Positions 14,205-63,656 are shown, numbered from the stretch's first letter. The stretch is DNA of 64,000 nt from Candidatus Enterousia sp. (GCA_045646625.1 JAZRLB010000008.1:3234-67233), one strand, 5' to 3'. The notes: generated from the sequence alone by a model not told the origin. Program-made: numbers and translations.

Positions 14205-14346
14205 AACTTTCTTTCCTTCCGTTGTTATCATAGAACAAATGACGAATCGCACGCAAGTGGAAAATATTGTTTTAACGACAATGTCTTGCATAAAAATAAA
14301 TGATTGTTATAATCTGGGCGAACAACAAACCAAAGGATATTTTTAT

Positions 14347-31273: not shown

Positions 31274-31648
31274 TTATCTTTGCTTGTCCAACCATTTTCT
31301 ACGTGGTAAAAATCTTTCGTCCAGTTCAAAACTACTGCACGTATCCTCGGGATTTACAGATCGTGGGCCGTGTAATAAAAAATTAAAGAAGTCAGCATGA
31401 TAACAGGCGGGTTTTCCATGATAATAATCGAAATACACACAGTGTTTGCATAGTCTTGATGTCTGATATGGAATTGCTTCGAAATCATCGCACGATTCCA
31501 TATTTGGTTTTTTTATTATTTTATAGCCCGTAATCAGACGCAACACAGGGCTGCGTTTGCCGCATACAACCCCATTATCATTTTCAATACTGTGCACACA
31601 GTTTATACAACTTTTTTCGAATATGATCGGTCCATCGATTATTTCCAT
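31274..31648 (-). CDS. Cys-rich hypothetical protein (124 aa)
   Basis: ORF inserted between fmt and truA on the same strand. CxxC pairs (CINC, CKHC) plus further Cys and His. No family recognised. Confidence 0.5.
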   Translation of the reverse strand: MEIIDGPIIFEKSCINCVHSIENDNGVVCGKRSPVLRLITGYKIIKKPNMESCDDFEAIPYQTSRLCKHCVYFDYYHGKPACYHADFFNFLLHGPRSVNPEDTCSSFELDERFLPRRKWLDKQR

Positions 31649-35935: not shown

Positions 35936-35965
35936 AAAAAAACCGCCAAACGGCGGTTTTTTTAT
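35936..35965. terminator. bidirectional intrinsic terminator (pyk / membrane-protein operon)
   Basis: AACCGCC-AAAC-GGCGGTT hairpin flanked by A6 and T7. Confidence 0.8.
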
Positions 35966-37260
35966 TTTTTCCCATCCTTGATAATTTTCCACCACTCTTT
36001 TGCTGTTCCGTATGTTTTTTTCCACAGCGTGCTGACATCTCCGCGCATTTGGTCGCCGACCTTGGTCGATATAGAACCGCCCAATTTGCTTGCAATGTCC
36101 ATACCGCGACTGGCGAACCACCACGTTAACAACACAACCAACAGCGTTTCCAGAAAACCGCCTGGATTCAGATTTGGAACACGTGATGATAGATTTGTAT
36201 CCACAGTACCTGACAGCAAGGCCGCACAAAACGCAACAACGATTGACAGTGAAACAAAATAAAGCGATGCTTTAATAAATTTTTCTATTTGTGCCTCGAC
36301 CGTCTCTGCTTTGAATATCCCCAGAAATTGATTAAATATATTGCCTGCCATCCCCTTATATGATGTGCTGCCAACTGTCTGTGTCAGTGCCGTAAACGGC
36401 AGCATCATAACGGACAAGAACAAATCTGCTATAACCCCCAGCGCCATAAATGCAAATTTCCATGCCAGCATAATGAACATAACAATGAATATCAGGCCGC
36501 CTATAACAGAAAAAGCGCTGGTTCCAATGCCTGAAATAATCCATTGCCATCCTGCTGCAATCGCGGTATAGCAAAAGCCGGATACGCGTGTCGGTACACA
36601 CAGTATATCTGCTGCGGCATCTGCATCCAGGATATTGTTTGTTTCGATATGTGTCTGGGCGTATGTGTGAATAGCGGCGCACGTATCTGGCAGTTCTGCC
36701 CCCGCACTTTGTGCCACCGCCCCCAGTATTAAATCAGACGCATATGTTCCAATGCTAACAATTGGTCCCATTATCCACATAAAAATTTGGGCTGGGCCAA
36801 AACGCAGTATTACAACCCACACCGCAATCATTGTGCCTTTTTTTACAATTTCGGTCAGGTGTTTAAGTACATCGCCCTTGCCGCTTTGCATCATATTGTA
36901 CGTATCAAATATCACCCAAAAAGCAAATGCGATAAACATAAATAAAATGACAAAGCGCACCAGTGATGAATCTAAAATTTCTGAAATAAATGACAGCGCA
37001 TTCATAAATGCCAGACCGATTTTCGCTTCGATTGGTACATAGTCACGTACCAGTTGCTTTTGAAACTCGTCTTGAAATCGTTCTGCGTCATTTGAAATTC
37101 CTGTCACGAAGCGTTCACGATTATTTTCTGTTGCCCATGTTCCGTGATCGCCAATGTCCCCCATTGGTAAATTTGCAGTTGCACCGATTGCAGGTGCTGC
37201 CAGTCCTGCCACCAAAACGACAATAAATAATTTTGATAAAAATCTACGCAGTATATTCAT
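35962..37260 (-). CDS. polytopic membrane protein, paralogue 4 of 5 (TrbL/VirB6-like architecture, tentative)
   Basis: 432 aa. Signal peptide MNILRRFLSKLFIVVLVAGLAAPAIGA. TM pair followed by FGPAQIFMWIMGPIVSIG, a Cys-containing central loop, more TMs and a tail ...WWKIIKDGKK. TAATG overlap with the upstream paralogue. Coding status is confident; the family call rests on architecture only. Confidence 0.5.
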   Translation of the reverse strand: MNILRRFLSKLFIVVLVAGLAAPAIGATANLPMGDIGDHGTWATENNRERFVTGISNDAERFQDEFQKQLVRDYVPIEAKIGLAFMNALSFISEILDSSLVRFVILFMFIAFAFWVIFDTYNMMQSGKGDVLKHLTEIVKKGTMIAVWVVILRFGPAQIFMWIMGPIVSIGTYASDLILGAVAQSAGAELPDTCAAIHTYAQTHIETNNILDADAAADILCVPTRVSGFCYTAIAAGWQWIISGIGTSAFSVIGGLIFIVMFIMLAWKFAFMALGVIADLFLSVMMLPFTALTQTVGSTSYKGMAGNIFNQFLGIFKAETVEAQIEKFIKASLYFVSLSIVVAFCAALLSGTVDTNLSSRVPNLNPGGFLETLLVVLLTWWFASRGMDIASKLGGSISTKVGDQMRGDVSTLWKKTYGTAKEWWKIIKDGKK

Positions 37261-38750
37261 TATTTTTTACCCATAGCCTTGGTGACTTTTTCTGTTATCT
37301 GAACGGGAACTGCCCAAATCTTTTGACCTAAATCGTGTACCCAGGCACCATAGTCGAACTGTTCACCTGTTGATACGTTGGCATTTTCGCCTGGTACAGG
37401 CAGTTTTACCGCCCCGTTTGGTAACAGCGCATCAATCTTTGGTGCAATCGCATAATAGTAAATAAAGAACAAGAATACCATCATCAACAGGAAATCCCAG
37501 CCGTCTGACAGAAAGTCAAAGGCCCCAGGATACATTCGTTCTACTTCTGCCTTGCGTGCGGTAAAACAGTCTTTGAATCTTTCGGCATCCATTTCACCGT
37601 CAACCAGTGCCACAGACTCGCAAGTCGAGAACACGTTCATAACCGACAGCGTTTGTGCATCCGGATTTTCTGCGTGCATACCCATCATAGGCGGTAAAAT
37701 TGCTGTGTATCCATCGCGTGGCCCTGGGAAATACATATCCGCTGTGAAAGAAATTGTTGCATATATCAATAATACTTTCAGTGTAATCGCAATAATTCGC
37801 ACCGCGGATGATACAACCAGTCCAATTGCATTGCTGAATAATTTATTTGCTTTGGACCATGTTCCCTCAAAAGCGGTCGCCGCCAATAACAAAGGCAAGA
37901 ATATGATTATAAATATCAGCTTGAACACAATAGATAATATTTGAAAAAATAAATCGAAACCAATGACCAAGAACATTATAACCAATGCCAATCCGGCCAG
38001 CCACGTAAACGCACCGCCCCCCAGCCCCAGCCATGAATAATTCATCAGTGCAAAACCACCGGCTGCACCGGCCAACATTACACTATTGATATTTCCCATA
38101 ACGCACATAAAAGGTTGCATAATTGGGTTTAATATATCGCGGCTGTCACCATTTTCTGTTGTTTTCAGTGCCCCACATTGTGCTGCATCTGTCACCCCGG
38201 ACGCCATCATCCCCAGTTCAGCCCCAACATATAAAACCGGTGTAATTGTTATCTGTGATACGCTGCGCAGTGCGGCATTTCCACCCATACCCAATGCCCC
38301 CATCAATACACCGACCACCATCAGGCGTACCCCCAGTTTCCAAATCTTGTCCCACCAGGCTTTCAGTTCAATTTTATGTTCGGTTGGATTTTCATAATTA
38401 ACAGTTTTCTTGGCGTGTTCGAAAATATATTGTGCCGTGTGAATAAAAATAAAAATTCCAAAACCAATTGCCATTAAAATCCACAGGTTCTCGACCATTA
38501 AGGTCCAAAAACGCTCGGTTGCATCCCCGATTACTGAAAATAAATCTGCAATATACCTGCACATAAAGCAGCCATTGGCGCTTGCAATATCGCCATTTTC
38601 AACACCGGCGGCGGTCAAAAAGTTTTTCATACTGGTATATGTCAGCGCCGACCCGCCCAGGGATGACGACAAATACCAAATCCCCAGTCCCAAAGCAATC
38701 GCGCCCATCAGCAATCGCACACCAATTAAAATCAATTGTACTTTTAGCAT
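37260..38750 (-). CDS. polytopic membrane protein, paralogue 3 of 5 (TrbL/VirB6-like architecture, tentative)
   Basis: 496 aa. GCFMCRYIADLF motif, NAALRSVSQITITPVLYVG motif, central loop with Cys pair, tail ...KVTKAMGKK. TAATG overlaps at both ends. Confidence 0.5.
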   Translation of the reverse strand: MLKVQLILIGVRLLMGAIALGLGIWYLSSSLGGSALTYTSMKNFLTAAGVENGDIASANGCFMCRYIADLFSVIGDATERFWTLMVENLWILMAIGFGIFIFIHTAQYIFEHAKKTVNYENPTEHKIELKAWWDKIWKLGVRLMVVGVLMGALGMGGNAALRSVSQITITPVLYVGAELGMMASGVTDAAQCGALKTTENGDSRDILNPIMQPFMCVMGNINSVMLAGAAGGFALMNYSWLGLGGGAFTWLAGLALVIMFLVIGFDLFFQILSIVFKLIFIIIFLPLLLAATAFEGTWSKANKLFSNAIGLVVSSAVRIIAITLKVLLIYATISFTADMYFPGPRDGYTAILPPMMGMHAENPDAQTLSVMNVFSTCESVALVDGEMDAERFKDCFTARKAEVERMYPGAFDFLSDGWDFLLMMVFLFFIYYYAIAPKIDALLPNGAVKLPVPGENANVSTGEQFDYGAWVHDLGQKIWAVPVQITEKVTKAMGKK

Positions 38751-39943
38751 TATTTTTTGTCTTCTTTCTTTTCGCCGCCACTTATAATTGTTTTACCAAT
38801 TTTTTTGGTTGTCTCTACTACAGTCTTGGTAAGGTTCATCATATCATTTGCCAATTGTTCACTTAATTGTTTTTCTTCGCTGACGCCGAACACAGACATA
38901 ACCATTTTCGAGACCTGTGGAATTTGTCCCTGGATATAGTTCAAAACATAAACCAATACGATACAGCTGATAAATGTCATTGCCTCTGTATTTGTCAGGT
39001 CTAATTCAGCATCAAATATTTGTCCGGTTGTAATTGCGTTCATCAAATCCGCGCTGGACACATCTGGCGCCGCAAAGAACTTTGCGATAATCGCCATAAT
39101 CACAGTATATGTAATAACGGCCGAAGCCAACGTAATAATCGCATTAATCAGGTTCTTAAATTGATTTACACCAACTGTTTTCCCCAGTCCTCCAATCCAA
39201 TTGGGCACATTGTCGGCCCCATTAAACGCAAACAGCATCAAAGAAAATGGAAAGAAAAACGCAAAGTACGCCATCGCAATAATAATGTCTGCGAAATAGC
39301 AGCAGTATCTAAAAAACAACTTAAAGAAATTCCAGGATATAAACAGCCCAATAACAAACAATATAAAGTGTTTAATCAGTGCCCCAATCCCCAGCAATGC
39401 TGACCAAGAAAATGCAGAATCCATAACCGCAATCCCCAGCTTTATATACGATTGGAACTGGGTTATTGTTGTCTTCATCAGCATAATGATTTTGTCGCGC
39501 AATTCTGGTCGATAAAACCCATCTTCGCTCATTTTTTGTGGTTCATAGGTCACTTTTTCAGCAACTGTATCGTGATCTATATTAATCATCGCTTGGGTGT
39601 ATGTCTGGGCAACCTGTGCAACAGGTTCGAATGTGACAGATGTTAGAAGTCGTGGCAATGCCACCCCCATTCCTAACAGTCCAATACAAATAATTGCATT
39701 GATAAATACCCGTTGTATTGATTTTTCATACAAAGGATCGGACACATTCCCACGCACAGTTTTCCACACGGCATTTATCACAAAGAAAGAAAACATAATG
39801 CAAAACAAAACGATGCAGAATGAGGCAAATTTATCGTACACCAGTGCCGCTGCGTCAGACACAATTTGGAACAGACGATCAAACACCCCACAGCCCCAAC
39901 ACTGAACCATAGAATCTACCGAAGATGATAACCATTCATTCAT
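38750..39943 (-). CDS. polytopic membrane protein, paralogue 2 of 5 (TrbL/VirB6-like architecture, tentative)
   Basis: 397 aa. QCWGCGVFDRLFQIV motif, VALPRLLTSVTFEPVAQVA motif, tail ...GGEKKEDKK. Confidence 0.5.
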   Translation of the reverse strand: MNEWLSSSVDSMVQCWGCGVFDRLFQIVSDAAALVYDKFASFCIVLFCIMFSFFVINAVWKTVRGNVSDPLYEKSIQRVFINAIICIGLLGMGVALPRLLTSVTFEPVAQVAQTYTQAMINIDHDTVAEKVTYEPQKMSEDGFYRPELRDKIIMLMKTTITQFQSYIKLGIAVMDSAFSWSALLGIGALIKHFILFVIGLFISWNFFKLFFRYCCYFADIIIAMAYFAFFFPFSLMLFAFNGADNVPNWIGGLGKTVGVNQFKNLINAIITLASAVITYTVIMAIIAKFFAAPDVSSADLMNAITTGQIFDAELDLTNTEAMTFISCIVLVYVLNYIQGQIPQVSKMVMSVFGVSEEKQLSEQLANDMMNLTKTVVETTKKIGKTIISGGEKKEDKK

Positions 39944-39946
39944 TTT

Positions 39947-41221
39947 TTACTTTTTACCCTTGGTCCATCCCGAGAGTTTTATAATTGTTTTGCCGAACTC
40001 TTTTGCCTTGCCGACCATTGTTTTTGTGTCCGAGCCTACTTGCTTATACAGGTTGTCCATACCGCCGCCGATATATTTGTTTAGTTGTTGTTTTGTCATA
40101 TCAAAAATTCTGAACATCAAATAGAATGTTAGAATTGATGACAACCACATAATTGAATGTTCTCCAAAGCCCATAGCAGAATTTGCAACAGTTGGTACAT
40201 TGCTGTATGCACTGCCGCCTGCGGCAACAACAAACACAGACGTGTTCCATCTGAACAGTGCTTTGATAATTGCCAGATTCACGCACAGCATAAACGCGCA
40301 CGCAATCATTGTCACAATTAATTGTTGCAGTGCCTTGGTTATGCCACCAAAAGCCGGCCATACATCCAGCCATTTATCGCTGGATTTAAATACGTATGTT
40401 AATACAAAGAACGGATACAAAATCAGTTGCATTCCAAAATTAAATATTCCTTGAATAATTAACAGTGCCATAAACAAATTGCTGCCCACAAAGGTAAATA
40501 TTATCAGAATTCCCGTTATCAGGTTCAGAAAATCTTCGCCGCCGTGTGGAACCAGTGTGACCAGTCCACGCAGTCCTTGGGTCAAAAAATCAAATCCACG
40601 CTTAATAATCTGATTGTTCGCGTGTGACAGGTCGGCTACAGGCTGTACTAAGAATTCGCATGATTCTTTTGACATCCAGTCCTTGGCGACAATGTCTGCA
40701 GGGCATTCGACTTCTGGTGCGGACATTCCATCTTCATTTATTTGTTCAGTAATTGCGTTTGTGTAAACCGCGCCCAATTGCAAAAACGGATTAACCAGCC
40801 AGTCTGTTATATACACGGGTTTTAGTTGCAACAGCAAAAGGACTGCAATCACTGCACGAAAACCTGGTTTTGCAACGTGTTCGACGATTTTGAAGGTCGA
40901 CATTTTCCCGTCGGCAATTTCACCGCCGCCCGACATTCCAATAAATCCCAGCCATTTTTTGGGAATATACATTTTTGCCAAACTGATTGTTAGGGTAAAA
41001 CCCAGAAACAGCCAAATCAGTACGTGAATGATTCCGGGCTTATCCAGTGTTCCAACAAAAAATTCATATGTCCCTGTTGCGATCATCATCATCGCATCCA
41101 GCACCATTGGCACAAACGGTGCTAGATTCAGTGCGTCAATAATGCTGGCGTTTGCGGGCAGGGGGACACACAAAACCGCCAAAAATACAGCCGATAAAAA
41201 CAGTTTTTTTACGAAATACAT
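39947..41221 (-). CDS. polytopic membrane protein, paralogue 1 of 5 (TrbL/VirB6-like architecture, tentative)
   Basis: 424 aa. Cleavable signal peptide (...PLPANA/SIID), LKPVYITDWLVNPFLQLG motif, central loop ECPADIVAKDWMSKESCEF, tail ...SGWTKGKK. First gene of the four-gene minus-strand unit. Confidence 0.5.
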   Translation of the reverse strand: MYFVKKLFLSAVFLAVLCVPLPANASIIDALNLAPFVPMVLDAMMMIATGTYEFFVGTLDKPGIIHVLIWLFLGFTLTISLAKMYIPKKWLGFIGMSGGGEIADGKMSTFKIVEHVAKPGFRAVIAVLLLLQLKPVYITDWLVNPFLQLGAVYTNAITEQINEDGMSAPEVECPADIVAKDWMSKESCEFLVQPVADLSHANNQIIKRGFDFLTQGLRGLVTLVPHGGEDFLNLITGILIIFTFVGSNLFMALLIIQGIFNFGMQLILYPFFVLTYVFKSSDKWLDVWPAFGGITKALQQLIVTMIACAFMLCVNLAIIKALFRWNTSVFVVAAGGSAYSNVPTVANSAMGFGEHSIMWLSSILTFYLMFRIFDMTKQQLNKYIGGGMDNLYKQVGSDTKTMVGKAKEFGKTIIKLSGWTKGKK

Positions 41222-41271
41222 TCTCTACTTTTATATTTATCTTTTCAATTATATCATATTTAGGTCAAAAT

Positions 41272-42579
41272 ATGATATACTTAAAAGCAATGAATCGTCT
41301 AAAAAAATTTTGGATTACATTTTTAAGCTTTTTGCCGTTGACGGCGGGGGCGGCTGCGCCATTCGTTATTGGTGGTATTGCGGGCGGTGTAGTTATTGCA
41401 GGTTTTTCTATATATCGTTCTGCTTTTCCTGTTGATATGAACAGCGCGTACTCATTTTTTTCTAGTTGTTGGTCGTGCCAGCTGTTTTCAGACATTATGT
41501 CAACAATGTCCAATATATTGCCGAACATATACAATGCGCTGGGGCGCGTAATAATACCGTTTGCGATTATTTTGTCTGCGACATGGTTTGCGTGGCGTTT
41601 GTTTGATAATTTTATAAATCAAAAGGTCGAAGGCCCTTGGTCAATCGCCAACATATTCACGACCCATATGATGAAGTTGGTATTTGTGTCTATGCTGTTG
41701 GTTGCGCCGCTGCCACGTTTGATATCCGAAATCGCCATAGAGCCTGTATTTAACATAGGTTTATCATTAAATCGCGCGGTTGTGCATGACGATAAATTTG
41801 ATTCCTGTGTGGTTGCAACCGCCATTGCAGATCCTGTCTCGGTTGATGCGGCGGCTGCGTCAAGTGGGGCTTTTTCGCCGAAATTACGACATAATCTGGC
41901 CTGTGAATTGGCGGGCGTTCATCAAATGACGGGATTGGGAATGACAGTCGGGTGGACAATGCTTAATATGGCATTCGATTCGGATTATATGCATACGATA
42001 ATGTGGGATGTTCCGATATTCCCAAATGTGATAATCTTTTTTGCGGGCTTAACGATATTGGTCTTATTTTTTATGGCGCTGTTGCCAATTCCGCTGTATT
42101 TCCTGGAAATATTTATAACGTTGGCACTGGATTTGGCGATGTTGCCACTGATGTTGCTGGGCTGGTTGTTCAGCGGCTGGAAGATATCGTTGGCTGGGGC
42201 TGGCAAAACGATTCGTGGAATTATTGATTATGTAATCTCTGGTACGTTGGGGCTGGCTATTACTGGGGTTTTTATAGCATTCGCGACAATGTTTTTGAAT
42301 GCAATATTTGGTGACTGGTCGGGTGCGGCCGCATTATCGACAGCGATGGCCAATAACGATTCGAAATTTTTGATGGATGCTTTGATGATGCGAAACGACA
42401 GTCTGGTCACAATTATTCTGATGGGTATATTTATTGCAATGTTTATGACGATGATTCCGGCCTTGGCCAAGACCTTATTCAGCGTTCAAATATCTACAGA
42501 TTTCTATGATACAACAAAAAACAATCTGGATATCTTGTGGAAAAACGCGAAAAAATGGTACGGCGCACTAAAAAAATAA
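41272..42579 (+). CDS. polytopic membrane protein, paralogue 5 of 5, divergent (TrbL/VirB6-like architecture, tentative)
   Basis: About 435 aa. Signal-like N-terminus, SCWSCQLFSDI motif, APLPRLISEIAIEPVFNIG motif, Cys pair in the central loop, tail ...KKWYGALKK. Start taken at the ATG at 41272 (alternative 41290); the 41152 extension overlaps paralogue 1 and is rejected. Confidence 0.5.
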   Translation: MIYLKAMNRLKKFWITFLSFLPLTAGAAAPFVIGGIAGGVVIAGFSIYRSAFPVDMNSAYSFFSSCWSCQLFSDIMSTMSNILPNIYNALGRVIIPFAIILSATWFAWRLFDNFINQKVEGPWSIANIFTTHMMKLVFVSMLLVAPLPRLISEIAIEPVFNIGLSLNRAVVHDDKFDSCVVATAIADPVSVDAAAASSGAFSPKLRHNLACELAGVHQMTGLGMTVGWTMLNMAFDSDYMHTIMWDVPIFPNVIIFFAGLTILVLFFMALLPIPLYFLEIFITLALDLAMLPLMLLGWLFSGWKISLAGAGKTIRGIIDYVISGTLGLAITGVFIAFATMFLNAIFGDWSGAAALSTAMANNDSKFLMDALMMRNDSLVTIILMGIFIAMFMTMIPALAKTLFSVQISTDFYDTTKNNLDILWKNAKKWYGALKK

Positions 42580-42647: not shown

Positions 42648-43157
42648 ATGACAAAGTTTCCGATTCTTTATTGGCCACGCAGAACAACTGGTGATAATGA
42701 ATACCAGTTGGCGCGCAAAGTAATCAATGGCGCAACGGGTATAATGCCTGATGTTATAACCGAAGACATAGACATTGCGGCTGTTTTAGATGAAAATCCA
42801 AACGCGGCGATATACTATCCTGTGTTTTGCGGTTCGACCGGTTGGTGGGGTGAATTGCTGGGCGGCAACGCAGTGGTCAGTGATAAGTTGATAATATCGC
42901 CGGAATGCCAATTGATGGTTATCGAATCGAATAAAACGGCACGTCCACGTGGCCAGACGCAATTGTTGGCGGCTGAAATCTATCCGACCAGTGGTTTTTT
43001 CAAAAAGATGAACTCTGGCATTGCGACTGTGGCCGATATGTTGGCAACGGACGCAGGTACAATTTTGGCACTATTTTCTGGTCGGAACCAGACCCAGTTT
43101 ATAAATGTGCTGGAATCTACGGGCAATTCCTATTTGGGGTGCATTGGTCGATATTAA
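42648..43157 (+). CDS. hypothetical soluble protein (169 aa)
   Basis: ORF directly downstream of paralogue 5. TATAAT at 42632-42637 lies very close to the ATG. No signal peptide, TM or motif recognised. Confidence 0.5.
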   Translation: MTKFPILYWPRRTTGDNEYQLARKVINGATGIMPDVITEDIDIAAVLDENPNAAIYYPVFCGSTGWWGELLGGNAVVSDKLIISPECQLMVIESNKTARPRGQTQLLAAEIYPTSGFFKKMNSGIATVADMLATDAGTILALFSGRNQTQFINVLESTGNSYLGCIGRY

Positions 43158-44220: not shown

Positions 44221-44247
44221 AAATACCGCCAATTGGCGGTATTTTTT
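44221..44247 (-). terminator. intrinsic terminator after virD4 (minus strand)
   Basis: ATACCGCC-AATT-GGCGGTAT hairpin immediately after the virD4 stop. It is followed by TTTT on the minus strand. Confidence 0.6.
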
Positions 44248-46495
44248 ATGCCAGTTCCTTGATTTTTTTTGTCTGCGGGTCATATATACGCGGTGTGCCC
44301 GTGTACCCCAGCGCCCTATGGTGTGCCGGCACCAAGAATTCTGGCAATGGTGGCGCTTCGCCTAATTGTGTTTTTGCATACATTTTTTTCTGTATTGGGG
44401 TTGTGTTTTTATACCATCTTTCCTGTTCGGCCTTAATTGGTCGATTATAGTGTCCCTGGATAATTACCAACTGTTCTTCTGGGTTCATTTTCATAATGTC
44501 CATAGGCGTGAACAGTAGTTCTTCGGTTGTTTCCTCTTTGTCCTTGCCGTCGGGACCCTTGACAGTTTTCTTTTTCATTTTATATCCCATCAGTTTCGAA
44601 AAACGGTCAGCCGTTTCCAAATCATTTTGACGCATAACGATTTTTGCGGCGGTTGTTGACATAATTGTTGCCGCGGCATCTGGGCCGTATTTTTCAGAAA
44701 TCTGGTGCAAGTCCTGACCGATAATCAGGTATGAAATTTTTTGTCCGCGCCCCAGGTCAGGTCCCTGGATAACTGCTTGCAGCTTTTGCATCTTTGGCAT
44801 TTCGTCAATCGCGAACAGTACAGGATAAGGACCCAATTTCTGTCCGTGATGCATATCGCCAGGTTTGTTCGCCAGCAGGAAGTTTGACATCAATTCAATA
44901 AAGATTGCTGTAATTGGGTTCAGTGCCTGTGCATCAACCATATTGATGGACAGGTATACTGATATAGGCTTAATTTTGCCGTCGCGTGGATCAACCATTC
45001 CGCGCAGGTCCGAGAAATGAAAGTCGGAATGACTGGTGCGATTGCGAACCGCTGCATTACGGAATATGTTTAATCCCGACTGTGCCGTTGACATGATGGA
45101 GCCACGTTCTTTGTCTGGGGTGCTGGCCAATTGCGTCAATTCTTGTATAGCACGGTGTGAATATGCGTATCTGCGTGCTTCTTCTACTGCGTTCATAAAC
45201 ATATCTTTGGCTGGGTCTGCCATCATAACCATTTGGTCGCCCTGTCGGCGTCGGTTTTCTATATCTTCGGCAATTGCGATTTGTGATGCATTCAGCCAAT
45301 CCAGAATCATTGAAAAAGACGCTTCCTTGCCACGCCACGCGTCGGGGATATTTTCCCACGTACCAACGTGAACATAGTTCATTGCATTTAATTCTCCGCG
45401 CTGCAACAGTGCGTGTGCTGCATACGCATTTGGGTCAGATGACATAGATAAGTAATAATCGGACAAAACGACCGCGTCTTCGTCATTGAATGCACCGCTG
45501 GTTATGCGTGAATAGAAATAGTCGTCGGCCTTGGCGCGTTCAACCTTAGAAATAATAAACTGAATGTATCCCGTCAATGCCGCGCGGCCTGTGATTGTCC
45601 AGTGCGGGTCCGCTGATGATGACGAACGGTCTGGAATCAATGTGTTCGCAATTGAATCGATATACAGGTCGCGTTCTTCTGGATTAAATGGCACGTGTCC
45701 CGGTGACAGTGGATTCCAGGATGGATAATAAATCCCACGTGCTGGGTCGTCTTGGCCCGCCCAGTTCAAAATGAATACAGGGCCAACCGTTGCGCGGTAT
45801 CCAGACGTTGATTGTTTTAATTCTGGTTTGGGGTCGTTGATAATCATTGATACCCCATCGCACTCTAAAATAGTAGGTTCCACGACGCCCTTTGTTTTAC
45901 CGGTCCCTGGGGGCGCAACGCACAGTGCGGACAAACACTCATCAAACATTAACGGTTTGCCCTTAAAGAACCCCAGTACCATCATAAATCCTTTGAACAG
46001 CCCTTCCTTGTTTTTATAGTCTTGGGACATTTTTTTTATATCGTCGGCGGTTGCAACGCGTGATGTTTTTTCGTCGAATTTGTCCTTGCTGTGTGGGTTA
46101 AACTCGTCAGTCATTGTTGCATCGGTCAGGAAATAGTATCCGATAAATGGCAACAACGGCGTAATGCACGGTATGTCTGGGCGCATTATACTGCGTCCAA
46201 TCCACGCGGGTATCTCGGCCAGTACGGACAGGCCGCCTGAAGTAAACAGGTTTCCTAAATAAATCGAAATCCAATGTCTGGTTGCAGGTGACCAGCCGTA
46301 TCGCCAAATATGCTCAATCGGGAACGAAGCTACAACCATTGTCGCCGCGACCAACCATATTATAATTGTCCAACGTATTGTCCAAAATTCACGTGCTATG
46401 CCGTTTTGGTCAAACTCTTTATAGGCGGACGAACGAAATATGTTCAGCCCTTTGCCTTTGCCCGATGCGGATAAAATGTTGAATTTCACTGCCAT
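44246..46495 (-). CDS. virD4: type IV secretion coupling protein (VirD4/TraG family ATPase)
   Basis: 749 aa. N-terminal TM segments, Walker A VAPPGTGKTKG, Walker B VLFAIDEMP, and the IIGQDLHQISEKYG motif typical of T4CPs. Confidence 0.87.
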   Translation of the reverse strand: MAVKFNILSASGKGKGLNIFRSSAYKEFDQNGIAREFWTIRWTIIIWLVAATMVVASFPIEHIWRYGWSPATRHWISIYLGNLFTSGGLSVLAEIPAWIGRSIMRPDIPCITPLLPFIGYYFLTDATMTDEFNPHSKDKFDEKTSRVATADDIKKMSQDYKNKEGLFKGFMMVLGFFKGKPLMFDECLSALCVAPPGTGKTKGVVEPTILECDGVSMIINDPKPELKQSTSGYRATVGPVFILNWAGQDDPARGIYYPSWNPLSPGHVPFNPEERDLYIDSIANTLIPDRSSSSADPHWTITGRAALTGYIQFIISKVERAKADDYFYSRITSGAFNDEDAVVLSDYYLSMSSDPNAYAAHALLQRGELNAMNYVHVGTWENIPDAWRGKEASFSMILDWLNASQIAIAEDIENRRRQGDQMVMMADPAKDMFMNAVEEARRYAYSHRAIQELTQLASTPDKERGSIMSTAQSGLNIFRNAAVRNRTSHSDFHFSDLRGMVDPRDGKIKPISVYLSINMVDAQALNPITAIFIELMSNFLLANKPGDMHHGQKLGPYPVLFAIDEMPKMQKLQAVIQGPDLGRGQKISYLIIGQDLHQISEKYGPDAAATIMSTTAAKIVMRQNDLETADRFSKLMGYKMKKKTVKGPDGKDKEETTEELLFTPMDIMKMNPEEQLVIIQGHYNRPIKAEQERWYKNTTPIQKKMYAKTQLGEAPPLPEFLVPAHHRALGYTGTPRIYDPQTKKIKELA

Positions 46496-55770: not shown

Positions 55771-56880
55771 ATGATAAAATATACCACTATGAGTAGAATG
55801 TATTCCACAATCTTGATGATTGCTTGTATTTCTTTCGCGGCCAATGTGCGCGCAGAAGAATTTATTGACCGAATTGATGATACAGAAATTGTCGCAGGCC
55901 ATTATGGTGATGACGGTTTTTTTTATGATGATTATGTATCCAGTCCAACGGATGATGCGCTGGATAATCTGTACGATGTCTATGAAGCTGTGCAAACATT
56001 CTGCGGTGGTCTGTCGGCCGAATTGTCTGAATTATCGGGTATATCCATTGCTAATACGGTTGTGACGGGCGTTGGAACGGCGGCGGCTGGTGGCGCGCTG
56101 GCGACCGGTATTGCCAAGGCGAATACGGATAAAAAAGTATCAGAAATGTCCGTGCAGATTGCGGAAAAAATTTGCCAAAATGGTGGTTGTGATGCGAACG
56201 GTATCGAAACAATGTCCGATCAGGAATTTGCGGAAAAAATCTTGCCGCTGTTGGTGGTTGGGGTGCAAAACGAAAATTCTGATGCCGCATCTGTTATTTC
56301 TATGAAGGTAGAGCAGGACAGGGCAATCGCCAAATCGAAGCGTCTGGGGAATTGGCGTACGGGGCTGTTGGCGGGCAATACTGCGACAAACATTGCTGCT
56401 GCAGTTATGGCGGGGCTGAATCGTGATCAAAGTGAATTGATTATGCGTGTCACTGCCTGCAATCAGTCCGTCCAGAAATTGAAAGACGCGAACCAGGCTG
56501 CCATTGCGGCGGGTGTAAATCCGATTGATAACCCGTATATGCAGGGGTTCAGTGAAACAATATACAAATGCGGAACGTTGAACGTCGCGGACGTGGAAAA
56601 AATTGAAAAGCAAATGACGGTTGTAATGGGGACTGGCATTGCGGGCAGTGTTGTTGGCGCAGTTGGTGTTGGAACCAGTGCAGCAGCCAATACAGATAAA
56701 ATCAGAAATGATAATACAGACGCGGGCAAGAAAAAGGAAAAGGCTTTAAATACGGTTGCCAATGTTTCGTCTGGTGCGAATGTAGTTATAGGTGCGGTTG
56801 GAACCGGCTTTAATATTTCCCTGATTAACCTGACTAAAAAAATGATGCGTGCCGCCCAACAATGCGAGGAAACATTATGA
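55771..56880 (+). CDS. secreted protein with three glycine-zipper-like segments and six Cys
   Basis: 369 aa. GGAG RBS. Signal peptide ...MIACISFAANVRA. Small-residue stretches GVGTAAAGGALATGIA, GTGIAGSVVGAVGVGTSAAA and SGANVVIGAVGTG. Its stop overlaps the start of the next gene (ATGA). Confidence 0.55.
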   Translation: MIKYTTMSRMYSTILMIACISFAANVRAEEFIDRIDDTEIVAGHYGDDGFFYDDYVSSPTDDALDNLYDVYEAVQTFCGGLSAELSELSGISIANTVVTGVGTAAAGGALATGIAKANTDKKVSEMSVQIAEKICQNGGCDANGIETMSDQEFAEKILPLLVVGVQNENSDAASVISMKVEQDRAIAKSKRLGNWRTGLLAGNTATNIAAAVMAGLNRDQSELIMRVTACNQSVQKLKDANQAAIAAGVNPIDNPYMQGFSETIYKCGTLNVADVEKIEKQMTVVMGTGIAGSVVGAVGVGTSAAANTDKIRNDNTDAGKKKEKALNTVANVSSGANVVIGAVGTGFNISLINLTKKMMRAAQQCEETL

Positions 56881-60350: not shown

Positions 60351-60379
60351 ATAAAAATCCCGCATTGCGGGATTTTTTT
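60351..60379 (-). terminator. intrinsic terminator after the 434-aa secreted-protein gene
   Basis: ATCCCGC-ATT-GCGGGAT hairpin, followed by a T-run on the minus strand. Confidence 0.7.
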
Positions 60380-61682
60380 ATGGGCACTGTGCCAGCTGTT
60401 TTAAAACGTTCTGTACATCATTATTAACGGATACGGTAATTTCGCGTTGCAGTCCATCCTTGTATGTATAGTTGAACTGTGCGTTCCTAAATTCTGGTAT
60501 TGCGCTGTAAACCTGTTCGAACGGAGCCAGCATTGCCTGGAACCATTGACGGCCGCGGCACAGACAGCCGTTGCGAACGTCAGCAGCCACGACAGCGGTT
60601 GCGGTGTTTGGATACTGGGTATCTAAATCGTGGTCTGTCATCATTAAACAGCGCGCACCAAACCCATAGAAATTTGCGTCGTCTGCCAAAAATTTATAAA
60701 CCAGTCCATCGCTTGCGCCGGCTTGCTTCAGTGCGTACGCCATACCATCGGTACAGCACGCCTGGGCTGAACGCATCAACATCTTGTATCTGTCCAACAG
60801 TGGTGCGGAAACTGTTTCATTTGCAGTAATGTGTATGTTGCAGTCTGCTGCGTGCACAAACTCTTCGACTTTGGTGTCGCGCAGGCGTGCGCTGCGTGGT
60901 GAAACTGTTTCACGTACAATTGGTTTTCTGCGCCAAATTTCGCATTCTGTTTCAGTCTCGAACGGACATCCTTCGTCAATTACTAACTCGCCAAAGGTTT
61001 CGATTATGACATCAGACATATCCTGGGCTGCGTACAGTTTCTCGTTTTCGGATATATTTGTGAACCACAGATTTTCACTTGGTTTGCGTGGTGCCAATAA
61101 TTCCTCGACGCGTGCGCGTGTTGTTGTGGCGTCTTCCATATTTTGTTGGTACAATTCAATTGCGTCAGTATTGGTTGTATAAACCGCGTCTGATTCACGC
61201 AAATAAATCTCGGGGCTTGGTTCCAAGAACCAGTCTGAAAAATCCTTGTACTTATAACTGTTGATAGATTCGTCCCAAATTGGAACCCCGTTGCGCCAAT
61301 CGACGGTCTTGACAGCCTTGGCGCTCTTTGATTGAGCGCTTGTTCCGTCCCACAGGGCGGGGCGTTCATCTTCTGGTACCGGCTTAATGGTCAGCAATTT
61401 TGCATTCACATTACGTTCTGGTATTTGGAAGTTTTCTGCCGTCGGCATCGCGGCTGCGTTTGGATCAGATTCCATCCAGGTTGGTGTTTCTTCTGTCGTC
61501 GCCGGCGTAGCCAGTATAATTGCAGTTGGTTTTTCTGTTTCGGTGACTTCTGTTGACCATTCGAACTCTTCGAATGTCAATGGTTCGATGTTGCATCCTT
61601 CGCCGGTGCATTCAGACGCAACCGCGCCAACCGCGCCGCACAGACACAACAGCGACGAAAAAATAAATATTTTGGTCTTCAT
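60378..61682 (-). CDS. secreted Cys-rich hypothetical protein (434 aa)
   Basis: Signal peptide MKTKIFIFSSLLCLCGAVGAVA. Acidic Thr/Pro/Glu-rich N-terminal part and a Cys-rich C-terminal half. No family recognised. Confidence 0.6.
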   Translation of the reverse strand: MKTKIFIFSSLLCLCGAVGAVASECTGEGCNIEPLTFEEFEWSTEVTETEKPTAIILATPATTEETPTWMESDPNAAAMPTAENFQIPERNVNAKLLTIKPVPEDERPALWDGTSAQSKSAKAVKTVDWRNGVPIWDESINSYKYKDFSDWFLEPSPEIYLRESDAVYTTNTDAIELYQQNMEDATTTRARVEELLAPRKPSENLWFTNISENEKLYAAQDMSDVIIETFGELVIDEGCPFETETECEIWRRKPIVRETVSPRSARLRDTKVEEFVHAADCNIHITANETVSAPLLDRYKMLMRSAQACCTDGMAYALKQAGASDGLVYKFLADDANFYGFGARCLMMTDHDLDTQYPNTATAVVAADVRNGCLCRGRQWFQAMLAPFEQVYSAIPEFRNAQFNYTYKDGLQREITVSVNNDVQNVLKQLAQCP

Positions 61683-61810
61683 ACTCAGTATTATATCACA
61701 AAATTGGCTGCTTTAAAACAGGTTTTTGACAGCGCTTTTCAGTTGTGCTTTGGGATTAAAGTCATTATAATCTATTGGAACAGTTGTTAAACAAAAAACA
61801 AGGAAGGAAT

Positions 61811-62776
61811 ATGAAAAAATTATCTGTACTTGCATTATTGTCTGTTATTGCGGCACCTGCATTTGCGACGGACGATGTGGTTGCTGAAAACGTGATGGAA
61901 GCCCCGGTTACGGAAACGGCTGTGGTACCTCAGTTGACAGATGAAGAAAAACTGAAGTTAAAGCAAGAGTTCAAAGATGAAATCAAGGCGGAATTAAGAC
62001 AAGAGTATCAGGATGAAAAACATCGTCGTGAAATTGCGTTTCCAAATGGGGTTCAGATTGGTGTCGGTGCGTCTTTTACCAGTGGCCTGAATGGATTTGT
62101 TGGCTATGCAAACAAAGACTTTGATTCTTTCTGGGCGAAGCGATTCGGTGTGCGTTTTGATTTTGCAACAACGCGTCCTATTCGTTCGGCTGTTAATGGT
62201 GCGATTGATTCGCTGGTGGATGATGGTATTGATATTGGTAATGGATTGACCGTTGATAAAGGAAAATTCGAAGCGCATCATTATGCAGCGTTGGTTGACT
62301 TTTATCCATTTGGTGACACTTGGTTGCTGGGTGGCTGGCGCTTGTCCGGTGGTTATTTTATGGGTGAATTAGAAATGTCTGCAGATGTTGCGGGTAAAAT
62401 AGATGGTGTCGATGGTTATTATGAATTTGAGTTGTCTGGAAATAAATATGCTTATGCTGGCAATTCGGTGCATGGTACATCGAAACTGGACTGGAAATAT
62501 CGTGGCCCATATGTTGGGACTGGTTTTGATATTGGTTTGTTCTCAGGTTTCAAACTTTATGTTGATGCAGGCGTTGTCTTTACGAACAAGTATGCGGAAT
62601 TATCGCTGGATGTTCCGACCGACAATCTGAAACAGTGGAATGGAACTGAGTGGGGCTCGGTTGATGTTCCGGAATTAAACACAGTAATTGCCAAGACTTT
62701 ATCTGATGCCCAAGATGAATTAGATGATTATAAATTCTATCCGATGATAAAAATGGGCTTTATGTATCGTTTTTAA
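61811..62776 (+). CDS. putative outer-membrane beta-barrel protein, paralogue A
   Basis: AGGAAGGA RBS. Signal peptide MKKLSVLALLSVIAAPAFA. Charged helical insert, alternating-hydrophobic strands, and C-terminal ...MIKMGFMYRF (terminal Phe). Confidence 0.6.
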   Translation: MKKLSVLALLSVIAAPAFATDDVVAENVMEAPVTETAVVPQLTDEEKLKLKQEFKDEIKAELRQEYQDEKHRREIAFPNGVQIGVGASFTSGLNGFVGYANKDFDSFWAKRFGVRFDFATTRPIRSAVNGAIDSLVDDGIDIGNGLTVDKGKFEAHHYAALVDFYPFGDTWLLGGWRLSGGYFMGELEMSADVAGKIDGVDGYYEFELSGNKYAYAGNSVHGTSKLDWKYRGPYVGTGFDIGLFSGFKLYVDAGVVFTNKYAELSLDVPTDNLKQWNGTEWGSVDVPELNTVIAKTLSDAQDELDDYKFYPMIKMGFMYRF

Positions 62777-62861: not shown

Positions 62862-63656
62862 ATGGAACGTGCGATATTCTGTATTTCATTGCTGCTGGTT
62901 GTGTCTGCAAATGCGGATGCTAAATTCTCGGATGGAATCTCTATTGGTGTCGGGGTGTCTGCGCTGGGTGGTTTAAATGTGCAGGCGGGTTATCATAATA
63001 TAGATTCCGATTCGTATTGGCTGCATCATTTGGGCTTGCGAATCGATTATGCATCGACTGATTCGTTAAAATCAGCTATCGATTCGGTGATTGATTCCTA
63101 TATGCGTGACGGTCGTGATATAGGTGATGGTGTTAAAATTGACGAAGGTTCGCTGGATGCCTGGCACAGTGGCTTTGTGTTAGATTATTATCCATTTGCG
63201 GGTTCGTGGCGTATGTCTGCTGGTTATGTGTGGGGTAGGGCGCGGCTTGATTCGTCTGTTTTTGGCGAAATTGTAAATGCGCCGGCCCACCGCTTTTATT
63301 TTTATTTGGCGGGCGATCATTATTACTATAACGGAAATGCCTTTGATGGAACGGTGACAATAGATTGGAATTACAGTGGACCGTATTTTGGTACGGGGTT
63401 TGATTTTGATTTAGGGTGTCGATTCGGTTTATTTGTGGATGTGGGGGTTGTTCTAACGAATCGGCCTGCCGAGTTGTCCTTGGATATCTCGCAAGATCAG
63501 TTATATATATATAATGAAACGACCGGGCTGTGGTCCCCAGTATCAATTCCGCAACTTGATGCCGATATTGTGCGCGCAACGGTCGAAGCGAACGATAAAT
63601 TGGCCGATTGGCGCATCTATCCAATGGTAAAATTGGGTTTTTTATACCGATTCTGA
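62862..63656 (+). CDS. putative outer-membrane beta-barrel protein, paralogue B
   Basis: Signal peptide ...LLLVVSANADA. Collinear similarity to paralogue A (IGVGVS..GGLN..AGY.N.DSDSYW, LDYYPF, GPYFGTGFDF). C-terminal MVKLGFLYRF. Confidence 0.6.
   Translation: MERAIFCISLLLVVSANADAKFSDGISIGVGVSALGGLNVQAGYHNIDSDSYWLHHLGLRIDYASTDSLKSAIDSVIDSYMRDGRDIGDGVKIDEGSLDAWHSGFVLDYYPFAGSWRMSAGYVWGRARLDSSVFGEIVNAPAHRFYFYLAGDHYYYNGNAFDGTVTIDWNYSGPYFGTGFDFDLGCRFGLFVDVGVVLTNRPAELSLDISQDQLYIYNETTGLWSPVSIPQLDADIVRATVEANDKLADWRIYPMVKLGFLYRF

What the first reader, a model, noticed from the sequence alone, without database searches (positions are those of the whole stretch)
35962..42579. Five-fold expansion of a TrbL/VirB6-like polytopic membrane protein in a 4+1 divergent arrangement
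Five adjacent genes encode 397-496 aa multi-pass membrane proteins: 39947-41221, 38750-39943, 37260-38750 and 35962-37260 on the minus strand, and 41272-42579 on the plus strand. They are visibly paralogous and share five elements. (a) An amphipathic N-terminal segment is followed by TM1, a short basic loop and TM2. (b) A shared motif follows TM2: APLPRLISEIAIEPVFNIG / VALPRLLTSVTFEPVAQVA / NAALRSVSQITITPVLYVG / LKPVYITDWLVNPFLQLG / FGPAQIFMWIMGPIVSIG. (c) A hydrophilic central loop carries paired Cys in four of the five. (d) A further block of TMs follows. (e) Each ends in a Lys-rich tail (GKK, DKK or LKK). Three copies also carry a CxxC just before the first helix (SCWSCQLF, QCWGCGVF, GCFMCRYI). 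The four minus-strand genes are translationally coupled, with TAATG overlaps at 37260 and 38750 and a 3-nt gap at 39943/39947. The fifth gene diverges from a start only about 50 bp away. The topology (periplasmic N-terminus, large central loop, C-terminal TM cluster) resembles VirB6/TrbL, and a VirD4 coupling protein lies 1.7 kb further on. Tandem virB6 amplification is a known hallmark of the Rickettsiales rvh type IV system. There, however, the copies follow virB3-virB4 co-directionally and are generally much larger. Here no virB2/3/4/8-11 gene is adjacent and one copy is divergent. This is therefore either an undescribed configuration of a scattered T4SS or an unrelated novel membrane-protein family.
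Basis: partly seen in the sequence, partly recalled or inferred. Interest (0 to 1): 0.75.

Follow-up and report, generated by a model that had tools for sequence, protein, structure and literature searches.

The report
Five hidden VirB6 genes in Enterousia
Five neighbouring "hypothetical" membrane-protein genes in a tiny-genome gut bacterium (Candidatus Enterousia) are very divergent copies of VirB6, the central channel/stalk protein of type IV secretion machines. This points to a Rickettsia-style multi-VirB6 secretion system in a lineage where none has been described.

Summary
Five adjacent polytopic membrane-protein genes (4 on the minus strand, 1 divergent) sit at the stated coordinates, with the described overlaps, motif, Cys pairs and Lys tails. 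The block is strictly conserved in about 80 species of Ca. Enterousia (order Rs-D84, genomes under 1 Mb).

The VirB6/TrbL interpretation is supported, but only by deep methods:
- Pfam and NCBIfam see nothing, and direct profile comparison to plasmid VirB6 fails (≤6%).
- AlphaFold models of two paralogues (E, A) each have R388 TrwI/VirB6 as their top and only coherent PDB matches.
- An exhaustive profile search finds 1,068 related clusters, and 18 of 59 scanned remote members carry Pfam TrbL.
- A bridge profile of nine such proteins matches plasmid VirB6 (98.2%) and all five Enterousia families (96.7–99.8%). Controls score ≤2.4%.

In other gut Alphaproteobacteria these bridge proteins form 3–4-gene VirB6 arrays near VirB9, VirB10 and VirB11.

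Not shown: that Enterousia has VirB4 or VirB8–11. VirD4 is present and intact, but its proximity here is not conserved.

Verdict: a new variant of the rvh-like multi-VirB6 theme. It is compact, detached from virB3/B4, arranged 4+1, and lies outside Rickettsiales.

The parts
35962..37260 (-). Paralogue A (432 aa), last gene of the D-C-B-A operon. Divergent VirB6/TrbL-superfamily protein with a signal-peptide-like N-terminus and an invariant Cys194/Cys221 pair.
   Evidence: ORF. Bridge profile 98.7%. AF2 model top hit TrwI/VirB6 8rt9_F. Present in 78 of 83 loci.
37260..38750 (-). Paralogue B (496 aa). VirB6-like, with an invariant CxxC (61/64) and two further invariant or near-invariant Cys pairs (192/216, 377/395). 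Carries P-x7-F-x2-T of the VirB6 loop motif.
   Evidence: Bridge profile 98.3%. TAATG overlap with A.
38750..39943 (-). Paralogue C (397 aa). VirB6-like, with no signal-like N-terminus, an N-terminal invariant CxxC (15/18) and no central Cys pair.
   Evidence: Bridge profile 98.9%. C-E hhalign 96.8%. TAATG overlap with B.
39947..41221 (-). Paralogue D (424 aa), first gene of the minus-strand operon. VirB6-like, with the most complete signature loop (P-x7-F-x2-S-x6-W) and a Cys173/188 pair.
   Evidence: Bridge profile 96.7%.
41222..41271 (.). 50-nt AT-rich divergent intergenic spacer. Presumed bidirectional promoter region for D-C-B-A and E(-F).
   Evidence: Sequence. Sigma-70-like hexamer pairs on both strands lie here and overlap the adjacent coding ends, but the count is not above the shuffled expectation. 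The promoter role is inferred.
41272..42579 (+). Paralogue E (435 aa), divergently transcribed. VirB6-like and the member closest to recognisable TrbL proteins. Invariant CxxC (66/69) and Cys179/211.
   Evidence: AF2 model top hits TrwI/VirB6. Bridge profile 99.8%.
42648..43157 (+). Gene F (169 aa), a soluble, highly conserved protein (mean 82% identity) that always follows E. Not a paralogue. Whether it belongs to the system is unknown.
   Evidence: Present in 81 of 83 loci. No relation to A-E. No Pfam, NCBIfam or PDB hit.
35936..35963 (.). Bidirectional intrinsic-terminator hairpin (12-bp stem flanked by A and T runs) between the convergent pyruvate kinase gene and gene A. Marks the end of the D-C-B-A operon.
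44246..46495 (-). VirD4/TraG-type coupling ATPase (749 aa), the only canonical T4SS gene found in the window. Solitary and always divergent from rsmE.
   Evidence: PF02534 7.6e-54, PF12696, PF10412. Found in 145 metagenome stretches, 80 loci examined.

Best explanation
The five genes encode five anciently diverged, compact (397-496 aa) members of the VirB6/TrbL superfamily. They are fixed in the chromosome of Candidatus Enterousia (order Rs-D84, reduced-genome gut Alphaproteobacteria).

Shown here:
- They are homologous to VirB6, by a transitive profile link and by predicted fold.
- All five are retained as 1:1 orthologues, in the same order, in about 80 species.
- Four are translationally coupled in one operon ending at a strong terminator. 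The fifth diverges from a 50-nt spacer.
- In other gut Alphaproteobacteria the nearest recognisable relatives form 3-4-gene VirB6 arrays in loci that carry VirB9, VirB10 and VirB11.

Inferred:
- In Enterousia the five proteins form the inner-membrane and periplasmic stalk-base module of a chromosomal, Rickettsiales-vir-homologue-like (rvh-like) type IV secretion system.
- The solitary VirD4 coupling ATPase feeds substrates to this system.
- The invariant Cys pairs form disulfides in the periplasmic bulk of the protein, as expected if most of VirB6 lies in the periplasm as in R388.
- The machine serves the partner- or host-dependent lifestyle of this metabolically crippled bacterium by exporting effectors, or possibly exchanging DNA or macromolecules, rather than plasmid conjugation.
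For: Fold:
- Model of E (pLDDT 65.5, pTM 0.57): TrwI/VirB6 chains 8rt9_F, 7o3v_G/J/F and 8rtd_L rank 1-3 and 6-7, with prob 1.00 and TMt 0.49-0.53.
- Independent model of A (pLDDT 68.3): 8rt9_F, 8rtd_L and 7o3v_F rank 1-3.
- The chains are confirmed as TrwI.

Sequence:
- The exhaustive profile search gives 1,068 clusters at E<=1e-3 and 372 at E<=1e-10.
- 18 of 59 remote hits are PF04610 TrbL-positive.
- On the bridging proteins the E-HMM and plasmid-VirB6-HMM matches overlap.
- Bridge profile vs VirB6: 98.2%, E 5.6e-14, 266 columns. Vs A/B/C/D/E: 98.7/98.3/98.9/96.7/99.8%.
- Negative controls score <=2.4%.
- The invariant Pro sits at the start of the VirB6 loop motif in all five, with partial to near-complete motif conservation (motif from PMC10732058).

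Conservation: the block is present and syntenic in essentially all 83 loci.

T4SS association of relatives. VirB11 matches TrwD at 1.6e-20 and VirB10 matches TrwE at 2e-11. CagX, TrbI and T2SSE Pfam hits are present.

VirD4: a strong match to three coupling-protein Pfam domains over a 749-aa ORF, conserved across the lineage.

Lifestyle: Rs-D84 genomes lack most biosynthesis, and the authors infer partner dependence (PMC12306168).

Multi-copy VirB6 is a known rvh hallmark (PMC10732058).
Against: - No direct Pfam or NCBIfam TrbL hit for any of the five, even at E<=1.
- Direct hhalign to a 13-member plasmid VirB6 profile gives only 0.6-6%.
- The Foldseek E-values are marginal (0.02-0.07), the models have moderate confidence, and TM normalised to the query is only 0.31-0.36.
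- No VirB4, B8, B9, B10, B11, B2 or B3 homologue was found in the 64-kb window or in 2.68 Mb of highly redundant Enterousia-like loci. It is therefore unproven that Enterousia has a complete T4SS.
- VirD4 is not syntenic with the block in most species.
- The published metabolic reconstruction of the lineage does not mention a T4SS.
Confidence: 0.65

Rival explanations
1. The proteins are VirB6-derived but exapted. Enterousia has lost the canonical T4SS core, and the five paralogues now form a stand-alone envelope complex, with or without VirD4. Possible roles are a channel for uptake or exchange of metabolites or macromolecules with a partner cell, or an envelope-maintenance function.
For: No other T4SS core gene was seen in the window or in any held Enterousia locus. 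The block is embedded among housekeeping genes. The genome is extremely reduced and lacks standard transporters (PMC12306168). The proteins have lost the extended domains and the M23 fusion seen in relatives.
Against: VirD4, which has no known role outside T4SSs, is retained as a full-length gene under strong conservation. Only a small, redundant fraction of the roughly 0.9-Mb genome could be inspected. Scattered T4SS genes are the norm in the closest analogue, rvh (PMC10732058).
Confidence: 0.22
2. An unrelated, novel polytopic membrane-protein family such as a transporter. On this reading the resemblance to VirB6 is an artefact of helical, hydrophobic composition.
For: No Pfam or NCBIfam TrbL hit. 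Direct hhalign to VirB6 is <=6%. The Foldseek E-values are marginal.
Against: The bridge profile joins both sides at 96.7-99.8% and 98.2%, while six unrelated membrane proteins score <=2.4%. 18 of 59 remote homologues are Pfam TrbL-positive. Two independent models pick TrwI first out of 350,542 chains, with no other coherent hit. Relatives lie in VirB9/10/11 loci.
Confidence: 0.05
3. A remnant or cargo of an integrated conjugative element (ICE or plasmid), that is, mobile DNA rather than a core chromosomal system.
For: VirB6 and VirD4 are typical conjugation genes, and the two lie only 1.7 kb apart in this window.
Against: The block is fixed at the same locus, with housekeeping flanks, in about 80 species. 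Its GC content (0.42-0.44) matches the surroundings. No relaxase (TrwC bait), VirB5 or entry-exclusion gene was found by phmmer in the window or loci. All copies are intact and under purifying selection, with 56-71% mean identity to the window protein across the genus.
Confidence: 0.03

Closest known systems
Rickettsiales vir homologue (rvh) T4SS with 3-5 tandem rvhB6 paralogues (Rickettsia RvhB6a-e; four VirB6 in Ehrlichia, Anaplasma and Wolbachia)
   Same: Both are reduced-genome Alphaproteobacteria. Both have multiple (here five) highly diverged VirB6 paralogues in a tandem chromosomal array. In both, T4SS genes are not collected in one operon and VirD4 is present. In both the system is chromosomal and non-conjugative in context.
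   Different: The host is order Rs-D84 (NCBI: Alphaproteobacteria incertae sedis), not Rickettsiales. The copies are compact (397-496 aa) and lack the large flanking insertions of RvhB6. They do not follow virB3-virB4. One copy is divergently transcribed (4+1). They are not recognised by Pfam TrbL. The presence of the other rvh hallmarks (duplicated virB4/8/9, no virB5) is unknown.
Four-gene 'extended VirB6' arrays in other gut alphaproteobacterial MAGs (loci L177, L179-L182; e.g. GCA_028706255.1, GCA_031550205.1)
   Same: They are the closest sequence relatives with recognisable TrbL domains. Direct pairwise hits to Enterousia E and B reach 8e-15. They also form multi-paralogue arrays, and L182 also shows divergent operon organisation.
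   Different: They have 3-4 copies of 416-1013 aa. The last copy is fused to an M23 peptidoglycan peptidase. The arrays lie a few genes from VirB9/CagX, a giant VirB10/TrbI and VirB11, none of which is near the Enterousia block.
TrwI/VirB6 of plasmid R388 (PDB 7O3V, 8RT9, 8RTD) and the Pfam family TrbL (PF04610)
   Same: The predicted fold matches: long, mostly hydrophobic helices, top Foldseek hit. The invariant Pro opening the P-x7-F-x2-T-x6-W loop is present. The hydrophobic helix bundle is collinear over about 150-270 columns.
   Different: Identity is about 12-16%. There is no direct HMM hit. Enterousia proteins carry an extra N-terminal signal-like segment, CxxC and disulfide-type Cys pairs, and a Lys-rich tail. 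There are five heterologous copies instead of one gene forming a homopentamer. No adjacent VirB5 or EexN gene is present.

Membership tests
VirB6/TrbL superfamily (Pfam PF04610) | Significant match of the protein to the curated TrbL HMM | tested here: not met
   No TrbL hit for any of A-E even at E<=1, and none in NCBIfam. The positive control TrwI scores 4.9e-50.
VirB6/TrbL superfamily (Pfam PF04610) | Demonstrable homology to bona fide VirB6 by profile-profile or intermediate-sequence search | tested here: met
   Bridge profile vs plasmid VirB6: 98.2% (E 5.6e-14). Vs families A-E: 96.7-99.8%. 18 of 59 remote homologues are TrbL-positive. Controls <=2.4%. The direct comparison fails.
VirB6/TrbL superfamily (Pfam PF04610) | VirB6 fold, as in R388 TrwI (bundle of long, mostly hydrophobic helices) | tested here: met
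   TrwI chains are the top and only coherent PDB hits for the models of E and A (prob 0.99-1.00, TMt 0.44-0.53). Caveat: E-values are 0.02-0.07 and model pLDDT is 65-68.
VirB6/TrbL superfamily (Pfam PF04610) | Conserved loop motif P-x7-F-x2-T-x6-W (as tabulated in PMC10732058) | tested here: inconclusive
   The Pro is invariant in all five. F at +8 is invariant in C and E, 96% in B and variable in D. T at +11 is 99% in A and 71% in B, and is mostly S in D. W at +18 occurs only in D (98%). The motif is absent by regex in 4 of 13 plasmid VirB6 and in all 9 bridge proteins, so it is not universal.
VirB6/TrbL superfamily (Pfam PF04610) | Encoded in a T4SS gene cluster | tested here: not met
   There are no VirB genes within 10 kb in 83 loci. 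Only VirD4 lies 1.7 kb away in this window, and that is not conserved. The feature is met for the bridging relatives.
Rickettsiales rvh-type T4SS | Three to five VirB6 paralogues in a chromosomal array | tested here: met
   Five paralogues, conserved across the genus.
Rickettsiales rvh-type T4SS | The VirB6 array follows virB3-virB4 co-directionally | tested here: not met
   The flanks are pyruvate kinase (or peptidase M13) on one side and gene F, L31 and an inositol phosphatase on the other. One copy is divergent.
Rickettsiales rvh-type T4SS | Extended VirB6 with large insertions flanking the membrane domain | tested here: not met
   The proteins are 397-496 aa, and the VirB6-like region spans nearly the whole protein.
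Rickettsiales rvh-type T4SS | Scattered islands with duplicated virB4/B8/B9, virB8-11-D4 cluster, and no virB5 | not testable with these tools
   Whole Enterousia genomes could not be scanned. VirD4 is solitary and not next to virB8-11.
Rickettsiales rvh-type T4SS | Host belongs to the order Rickettsiales | tested here: not met
   GTDB order Rs-D84 (PMC12306168). NCBI places it in Alphaproteobacteria incertae sedis. Some records are loosely labelled 'uncultured Rickettsiales'.
Conjugative MPF-T T4SS (plasmid/ICE) | Relaxase, VirB5 and entry-exclusion genes adjacent; mobile, patchy distribution | tested here: not met
   No relaxase or VirB5 by phmmer. The chromosomal position is fixed in about 80 species.

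The most novel reading that the evidence does not exclude
The five paralogues assemble one-of-each into a hetero-pentameric VirB6 stalk base. VirB6 is a homopentamer in the only high-resolution T4SS structure (R388). Here exactly five diverged copies are retained 1:1:1:1:1 in every species, and four of them are translationally coupled. If the hypothesis is right, Enterousia (and by extension Rickettsia with RvhB6a-e) would build an intrinsically asymmetric T4SS core. That would explain the long-standing puzzle of why reduced genomes keep multiple VirB6 genes. No held paper contains both 'RvhB6' and 'pentamer'.
Probability: 0.2. Interest if true: 0.8.

Novelty: new variant of a known kind. Interest (0 to 1): 0.6.

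Why it matters
1. It assigns a function class to five genes, about 0.7% of a 0.9-Mb genome, that are annotated as 'hypothetical' with no Pfam domain in every public record seen. It also exposes a large TrbL-related clade (1,068 clusters at 50% identity) that current Pfam and NCBIfam models largely miss.

2. It indicates that Candidatus Enterousia and Rs-D84 carry at least part of a type IV secretion apparatus. These bacteria are abundant in animal and human guts, have reduced genomes and appear partner-dependent. This gives a concrete molecular handle on how they might interact with a host or partner cell, which the published genome analyses left open.

3. It extends the multi-VirB6 phenomenon, previously regarded as a Rickettsiales rvh hallmark, to other alphaproteobacterial lineages. 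The Enterousia form is stripped down to compact proteins with no extensions. Together with the pentameric stoichiometry of VirB6, this makes the question of why there are several VirB6 copies directly testable by modelling or structure determination.

Tried and rejected
- Direct Pfam and NCBIfam scans of A-F gave nothing above threshold and no TrbL hit.
- Sequence searches of the PDB with E and with F gave no hits.
- Direct hhalign and hmmsearch of each family against a 13-sequence plasmid VirB6 profile gave 0.6-6% and non-significant scores. Taken alone, this would have wrongly suggested an unrelated family.
- I looked for the rest of the T4SS. R388 VirB1-B11, VirD4 and relaxase baits found nothing except VirD4 in the window, the 83 E-centred loci or the 80 VirD4-centred loci. 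A weak 'VirB11' hit in L061/L063 turned out to be MgsA. Closer baits (VirB9, VirB10, VirB11 and accessory genes from L179-L182) also found nothing in Enterousia loci.
- My last homologue search used a relative's VirB11 as bait. It returned only an 88-100% identical clade from larger-genome gut Alphaproteobacteria, so it did not reach Enterousia.
- Literature: the mSphere paper on Rs-D84 mentions no secretion system and has no held supplements. The 2023 Enterousia paper is not held. The 'Rs-D84 + secretion' search returned only three general gut-microbiome papers, none opened.
- I considered and rejected the idea that VirD4 adjacency is a conserved functional linkage, and that gene F is a sixth paralogue.
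- The promoter scan in the D/E spacer is not above the shuffled expectation, so no promoter claim is made beyond inference.

Full report
**1. The observation**

All five ORFs are present at the stated coordinates: A 35962-37260(-) 432 aa, B 37260-38750(-) 496 aa, C 38750-39943(-) 397 aa, D 39947-41221(-) 424 aa and E 41272-42579(+) 435 aa.

The A/B and B/C junctions are TAATG overlaps. The C/D junction is TAA-AAA-ATG. A 50-nt AT-rich spacer separates the divergent D and E starts. A 12-bp-stem bidirectional terminator hairpin (35936-35963) lies between the convergent pyruvate kinase gene and gene A.

Each protein has at least five strongly hydrophobic segments.

- The central Cys pair is 99-100% conserved in A, B, D and E, and is absent in C.
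- The CxxC is 100% conserved in B, C and E.
- The Lys-rich C-termini are conserved.
- The Pro of the post-TM2 motif is invariant in alignments that include all five paralogues.

**2. Organism and conservation**

Homologues of E and A are all 'hypothetical proteins' from uncultured gut Alphaproteobacteria and carry no meaningful Pfam domain.

A scan of 185,579 species genomes returned 80 loci. They are mostly labelled Candidatus Enterousia or 'Alphaproteobacteria bacterium' MAGs from ruminant, horse, chicken and human guts, and include a closed 958,618-bp MAG. Enterousia belongs to GTDB order Rs-D84. Its genomes are under 1 Mb, lack most biosynthetic pathways, and are inferred to depend on a partner (PMC12306168). 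NCBI places the genus in Alphaproteobacteria incertae sedis.

In all 83 loci the block A-B-C-D(-)/E-F(+) is present in the same order with near-identical lengths. Genes are missing only at contig ends. GC content is unremarkable. This is a fixed chromosomal feature, not mobile DNA.

**3. Paralogy**

Pairwise identity is only about 20%. Profile-profile comparison of the per-gene alignments gives long, collinear matches: C-E 96.8% (335 columns), A-D 93%, A-E 88.5%, A-B 85.8%, B-C 83.7% and D-E 68.9%. B-D and C-D are undetectable, and F is unrelated. The five are one family, but an ancient and strongly diverged one.

**4. Is it VirB6/TrbL?**

Direct tests are negative. There is no Pfam or NCBIfam hit, although R388 TrwI hits TrbL at 4.9e-50. 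A 13-member plasmid VirB6 profile, built from annotated plasmid genes, matches the five families at only 0.6-6%.

Three deeper lines of evidence agree.

(a) *Fold.* The AlphaFold2 model of E has pLDDT 65.5 and pTM 0.57. Its top Foldseek PDB hits are the TrwI/VirB6 chains of the R388 stalk (8rt9_F, 7o3v_G/J/F, 8rtd_L). These score prob 1.00, TM 0.49-0.53 normalised to the target, and about 340 columns. All non-T4SS hits have TM below 0.3. A separately built model of A (pLDDT 68.3) gives the same top three. Chain identity was verified. The E-values are marginal (0.02-0.07).

(b) *Intermediate sequences.* An exhaustive HMMER search of 1.84 billion representatives with the E-centred profile found 1,068 clusters at E<=1e-3 and 372 at E<=1e-10. 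Many are 600-1,300-aa proteins with the domain internal. Of 59 such remote hits, 18 are Pfam TrbL-positive and 10 carry an M23 peptidase domain. On nine of them the E-family HMM and my plasmid VirB6 HMM match overlapping regions.

(c) *Bridge profile.* A profile of those nine regions matches plasmid VirB6 at 98.2% (E 5.6e-14, 266 columns). It matches families A, B, C, D and E at 98.7, 98.3, 98.9, 96.7 and 99.8%. Six unrelated polytopic proteins from the window score <=2.4% against every profile.

In addition, the Pro that is invariant in all five paralogues aligns with the first residue of the VirB6 loop signature P-x7-F-x2-T-x6-W (PMC10732058). The motif is nearly complete in D, and B keeps P-x7-F-x2-T.

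I conclude, with about 0.9 confidence, that the five are genuine VirB6/TrbL-superfamily proteins that fall outside the current Pfam model.

**5. Context of the relatives**

The bridging proteins come from other gut alphaproteobacterial MAGs.

- L177 has three tandem VirB6-like genes of 493, 418 and 900 aa.
- L179, L180 and L181 each have four, for example 888-433-601-1013. The last gene is fused to an M23 peptidase.
- A few genes away lie VirB11 (1.6e-20 vs TrwD) and a giant VirB10/TrbI protein (2e-11 vs TrwE).
- L182 shows VirB9/CagX - 1338 aa - VirB10 - VirB11. An accessory block diverges from it, followed by a TrbL-positive 763-aa gene, a 444-aa gene and an M23-fused gene.
- Different array members best match different Enterousia paralogues. 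The 416-444-aa second gene matches B and D, while the long genes match E and A. This suggests the paralogues split before these lineages diverged, but the mapping is tentative.

The divergent VirB6 clade is therefore T4SS-associated and habitually multi-copy. This mirrors the Rickettsiales rvh system, which has 3-5 rvhB6 copies, scattered clusters and extended VirB6 proteins (PMC10732058; bioRxiv 2025.08.29.673095).

**6. What could not be shown**

In Enterousia itself the only canonical T4SS gene found is VirD4 (749 aa; PF02534 7.6e-54).

In 80 VirD4-centred metagenome loci the gene is solitary. It always diverges from rsmE, usually with rluB and a TPR gene beyond it, and is never next to virB8-11 or the A-F block. 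VirD4 lies within 10 kb of the block only in this window's sublineage and in 3 of 83 loci.

No VirB4, B8, B9, B10 or B11 was detected in the window or in 2.68 Mb of redundant Enterousia-like sequence, using baits from R388 and from the closer relatives. The step 'these five work in a T4SS with VirD4' is therefore an inference (about 0.65). The main rival is that they are exapted VirB6 derivatives (about 0.2).

**7. Mechanism proposed**

In R388, VirB6 forms a pentamer at the stalk base. Only two N-proximal helices sit in the inner membrane, and the bulk of the protein is periplasmic (PMC9259494; PMC12857230).

The Enterousia proteins keep the helical core. They add invariant Cys pairs and a CxxC, which fit disulfide-stabilised periplasmic domains. 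A, D and E have signal-like N-termini.

Three features fit stoichiometric co-assembly: exactly five paralogues, retention of all five in every species, and translational coupling of four of them. I put a one-of-each hetero-pentamer forward as the most novel reading that the evidence does not exclude (probability about 0.2). No held paper contains both 'RvhB6' and 'pentamer'. Four VirB6 paralogues are reported to interact in Ehrlichia (Bao et al. 2009, seen here only as a reference-list title in PMC12857230).

**8. Verdict**

This is a new variant of a known kind: a compact, Pfam-invisible, 4+1-arranged five-fold VirB6 array. It is detached from virB3/B4 and lies in a non-Rickettsiales reduced-genome gut lineage.

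Interest is moderate to high (0.6). The finding gives unannotated core genes a function class. It extends the multi-VirB6 theme beyond Rickettsiales. It reveals a large unmodelled TrbL clade. It also yields a testable stoichiometry hypothesis.

Noticed in passing
window 42648-43157 (+): Gene F is a 169-aa soluble protein with no Pfam, NCBIfam or PDB match. It follows E in 81 of 83 loci and is more conserved (mean 82% identity) than any of the VirB6-like genes. A TATAAT-like box sits just upstream. Its function, and whether it belongs to the system, are unknown.
   Followed up: partly
window 44246-46495 (-) and loci L097-L176: VirD4 is a solitary gene that diverges from rsmE in every mapped locus, usually with rluB and a TPR protein beyond it. 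It is never next to other T4SS genes. This is an unusual, stably 'orphaned' coupling protein.
   Followed up: yes
L179 9185-12226, L180 5137-8001, L181 8137-11085, L182 20714-end: In other gut alphaproteobacterial MAGs the last gene of the VirB6 array is a roughly 950-1013-aa fusion of a VirB6/TrbL domain with an M23 peptidoglycan metallopeptidase. NCBI names it only as a DD-metalloendopeptidase. It may be a VirB1-substitute built into VirB6. Three further remote homologues carry a T6SS VgrG3-like C-terminal domain and one carries RHS repeats.
   Followed up: partly
L179 19890-end, L180 17074-end, L182 5462-9991: Giant VirB10/TrbI proteins (1420-1509 aa) with Bflower-type domain hits lie next to an extremely conserved VirB11. 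The VirB11 is 88-100% identical across hundreds of clusters and is often mis-named 'Flp pilus assembly ATPase TadA'.
   Followed up: no
L101 3980-4441; L175 4665-8776: Some relatives carry type IV pilin-like genes near VirD4. These include one with a weak PilS N-terminal hit and three very large (434-482 aa) proteins with N-terminal methylation-type leaders, one of which has a weak Shufflon_N hit. This hints at a type IVb-like pilus in part of the lineage.
   Followed up: partly
window 35936-35963: A near-perfect bidirectional terminator (AAAAAAACCGCC-AAAC-GGCGGTTTTTTT) is shared by the convergent pyruvate kinase gene and gene A.
   Followed up: yes
window 75-887, 12909-14291, 55771-56880, 60378-61682, 61775-62776, 62862-63656: Six further ORFs have no Pfam match. 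Most have signal-peptide-like N-termini and may be outer-membrane or secreted proteins. In a 0.9-Mb genome they could be surface or interaction factors, or very divergent secretion-system parts.
   Followed up: partly
window 31274-31648 (-): A 124-aa Cys-rich ORF with several CxxC-type pairs lies between truA and fmt. It was not analysed.
   Followed up: no
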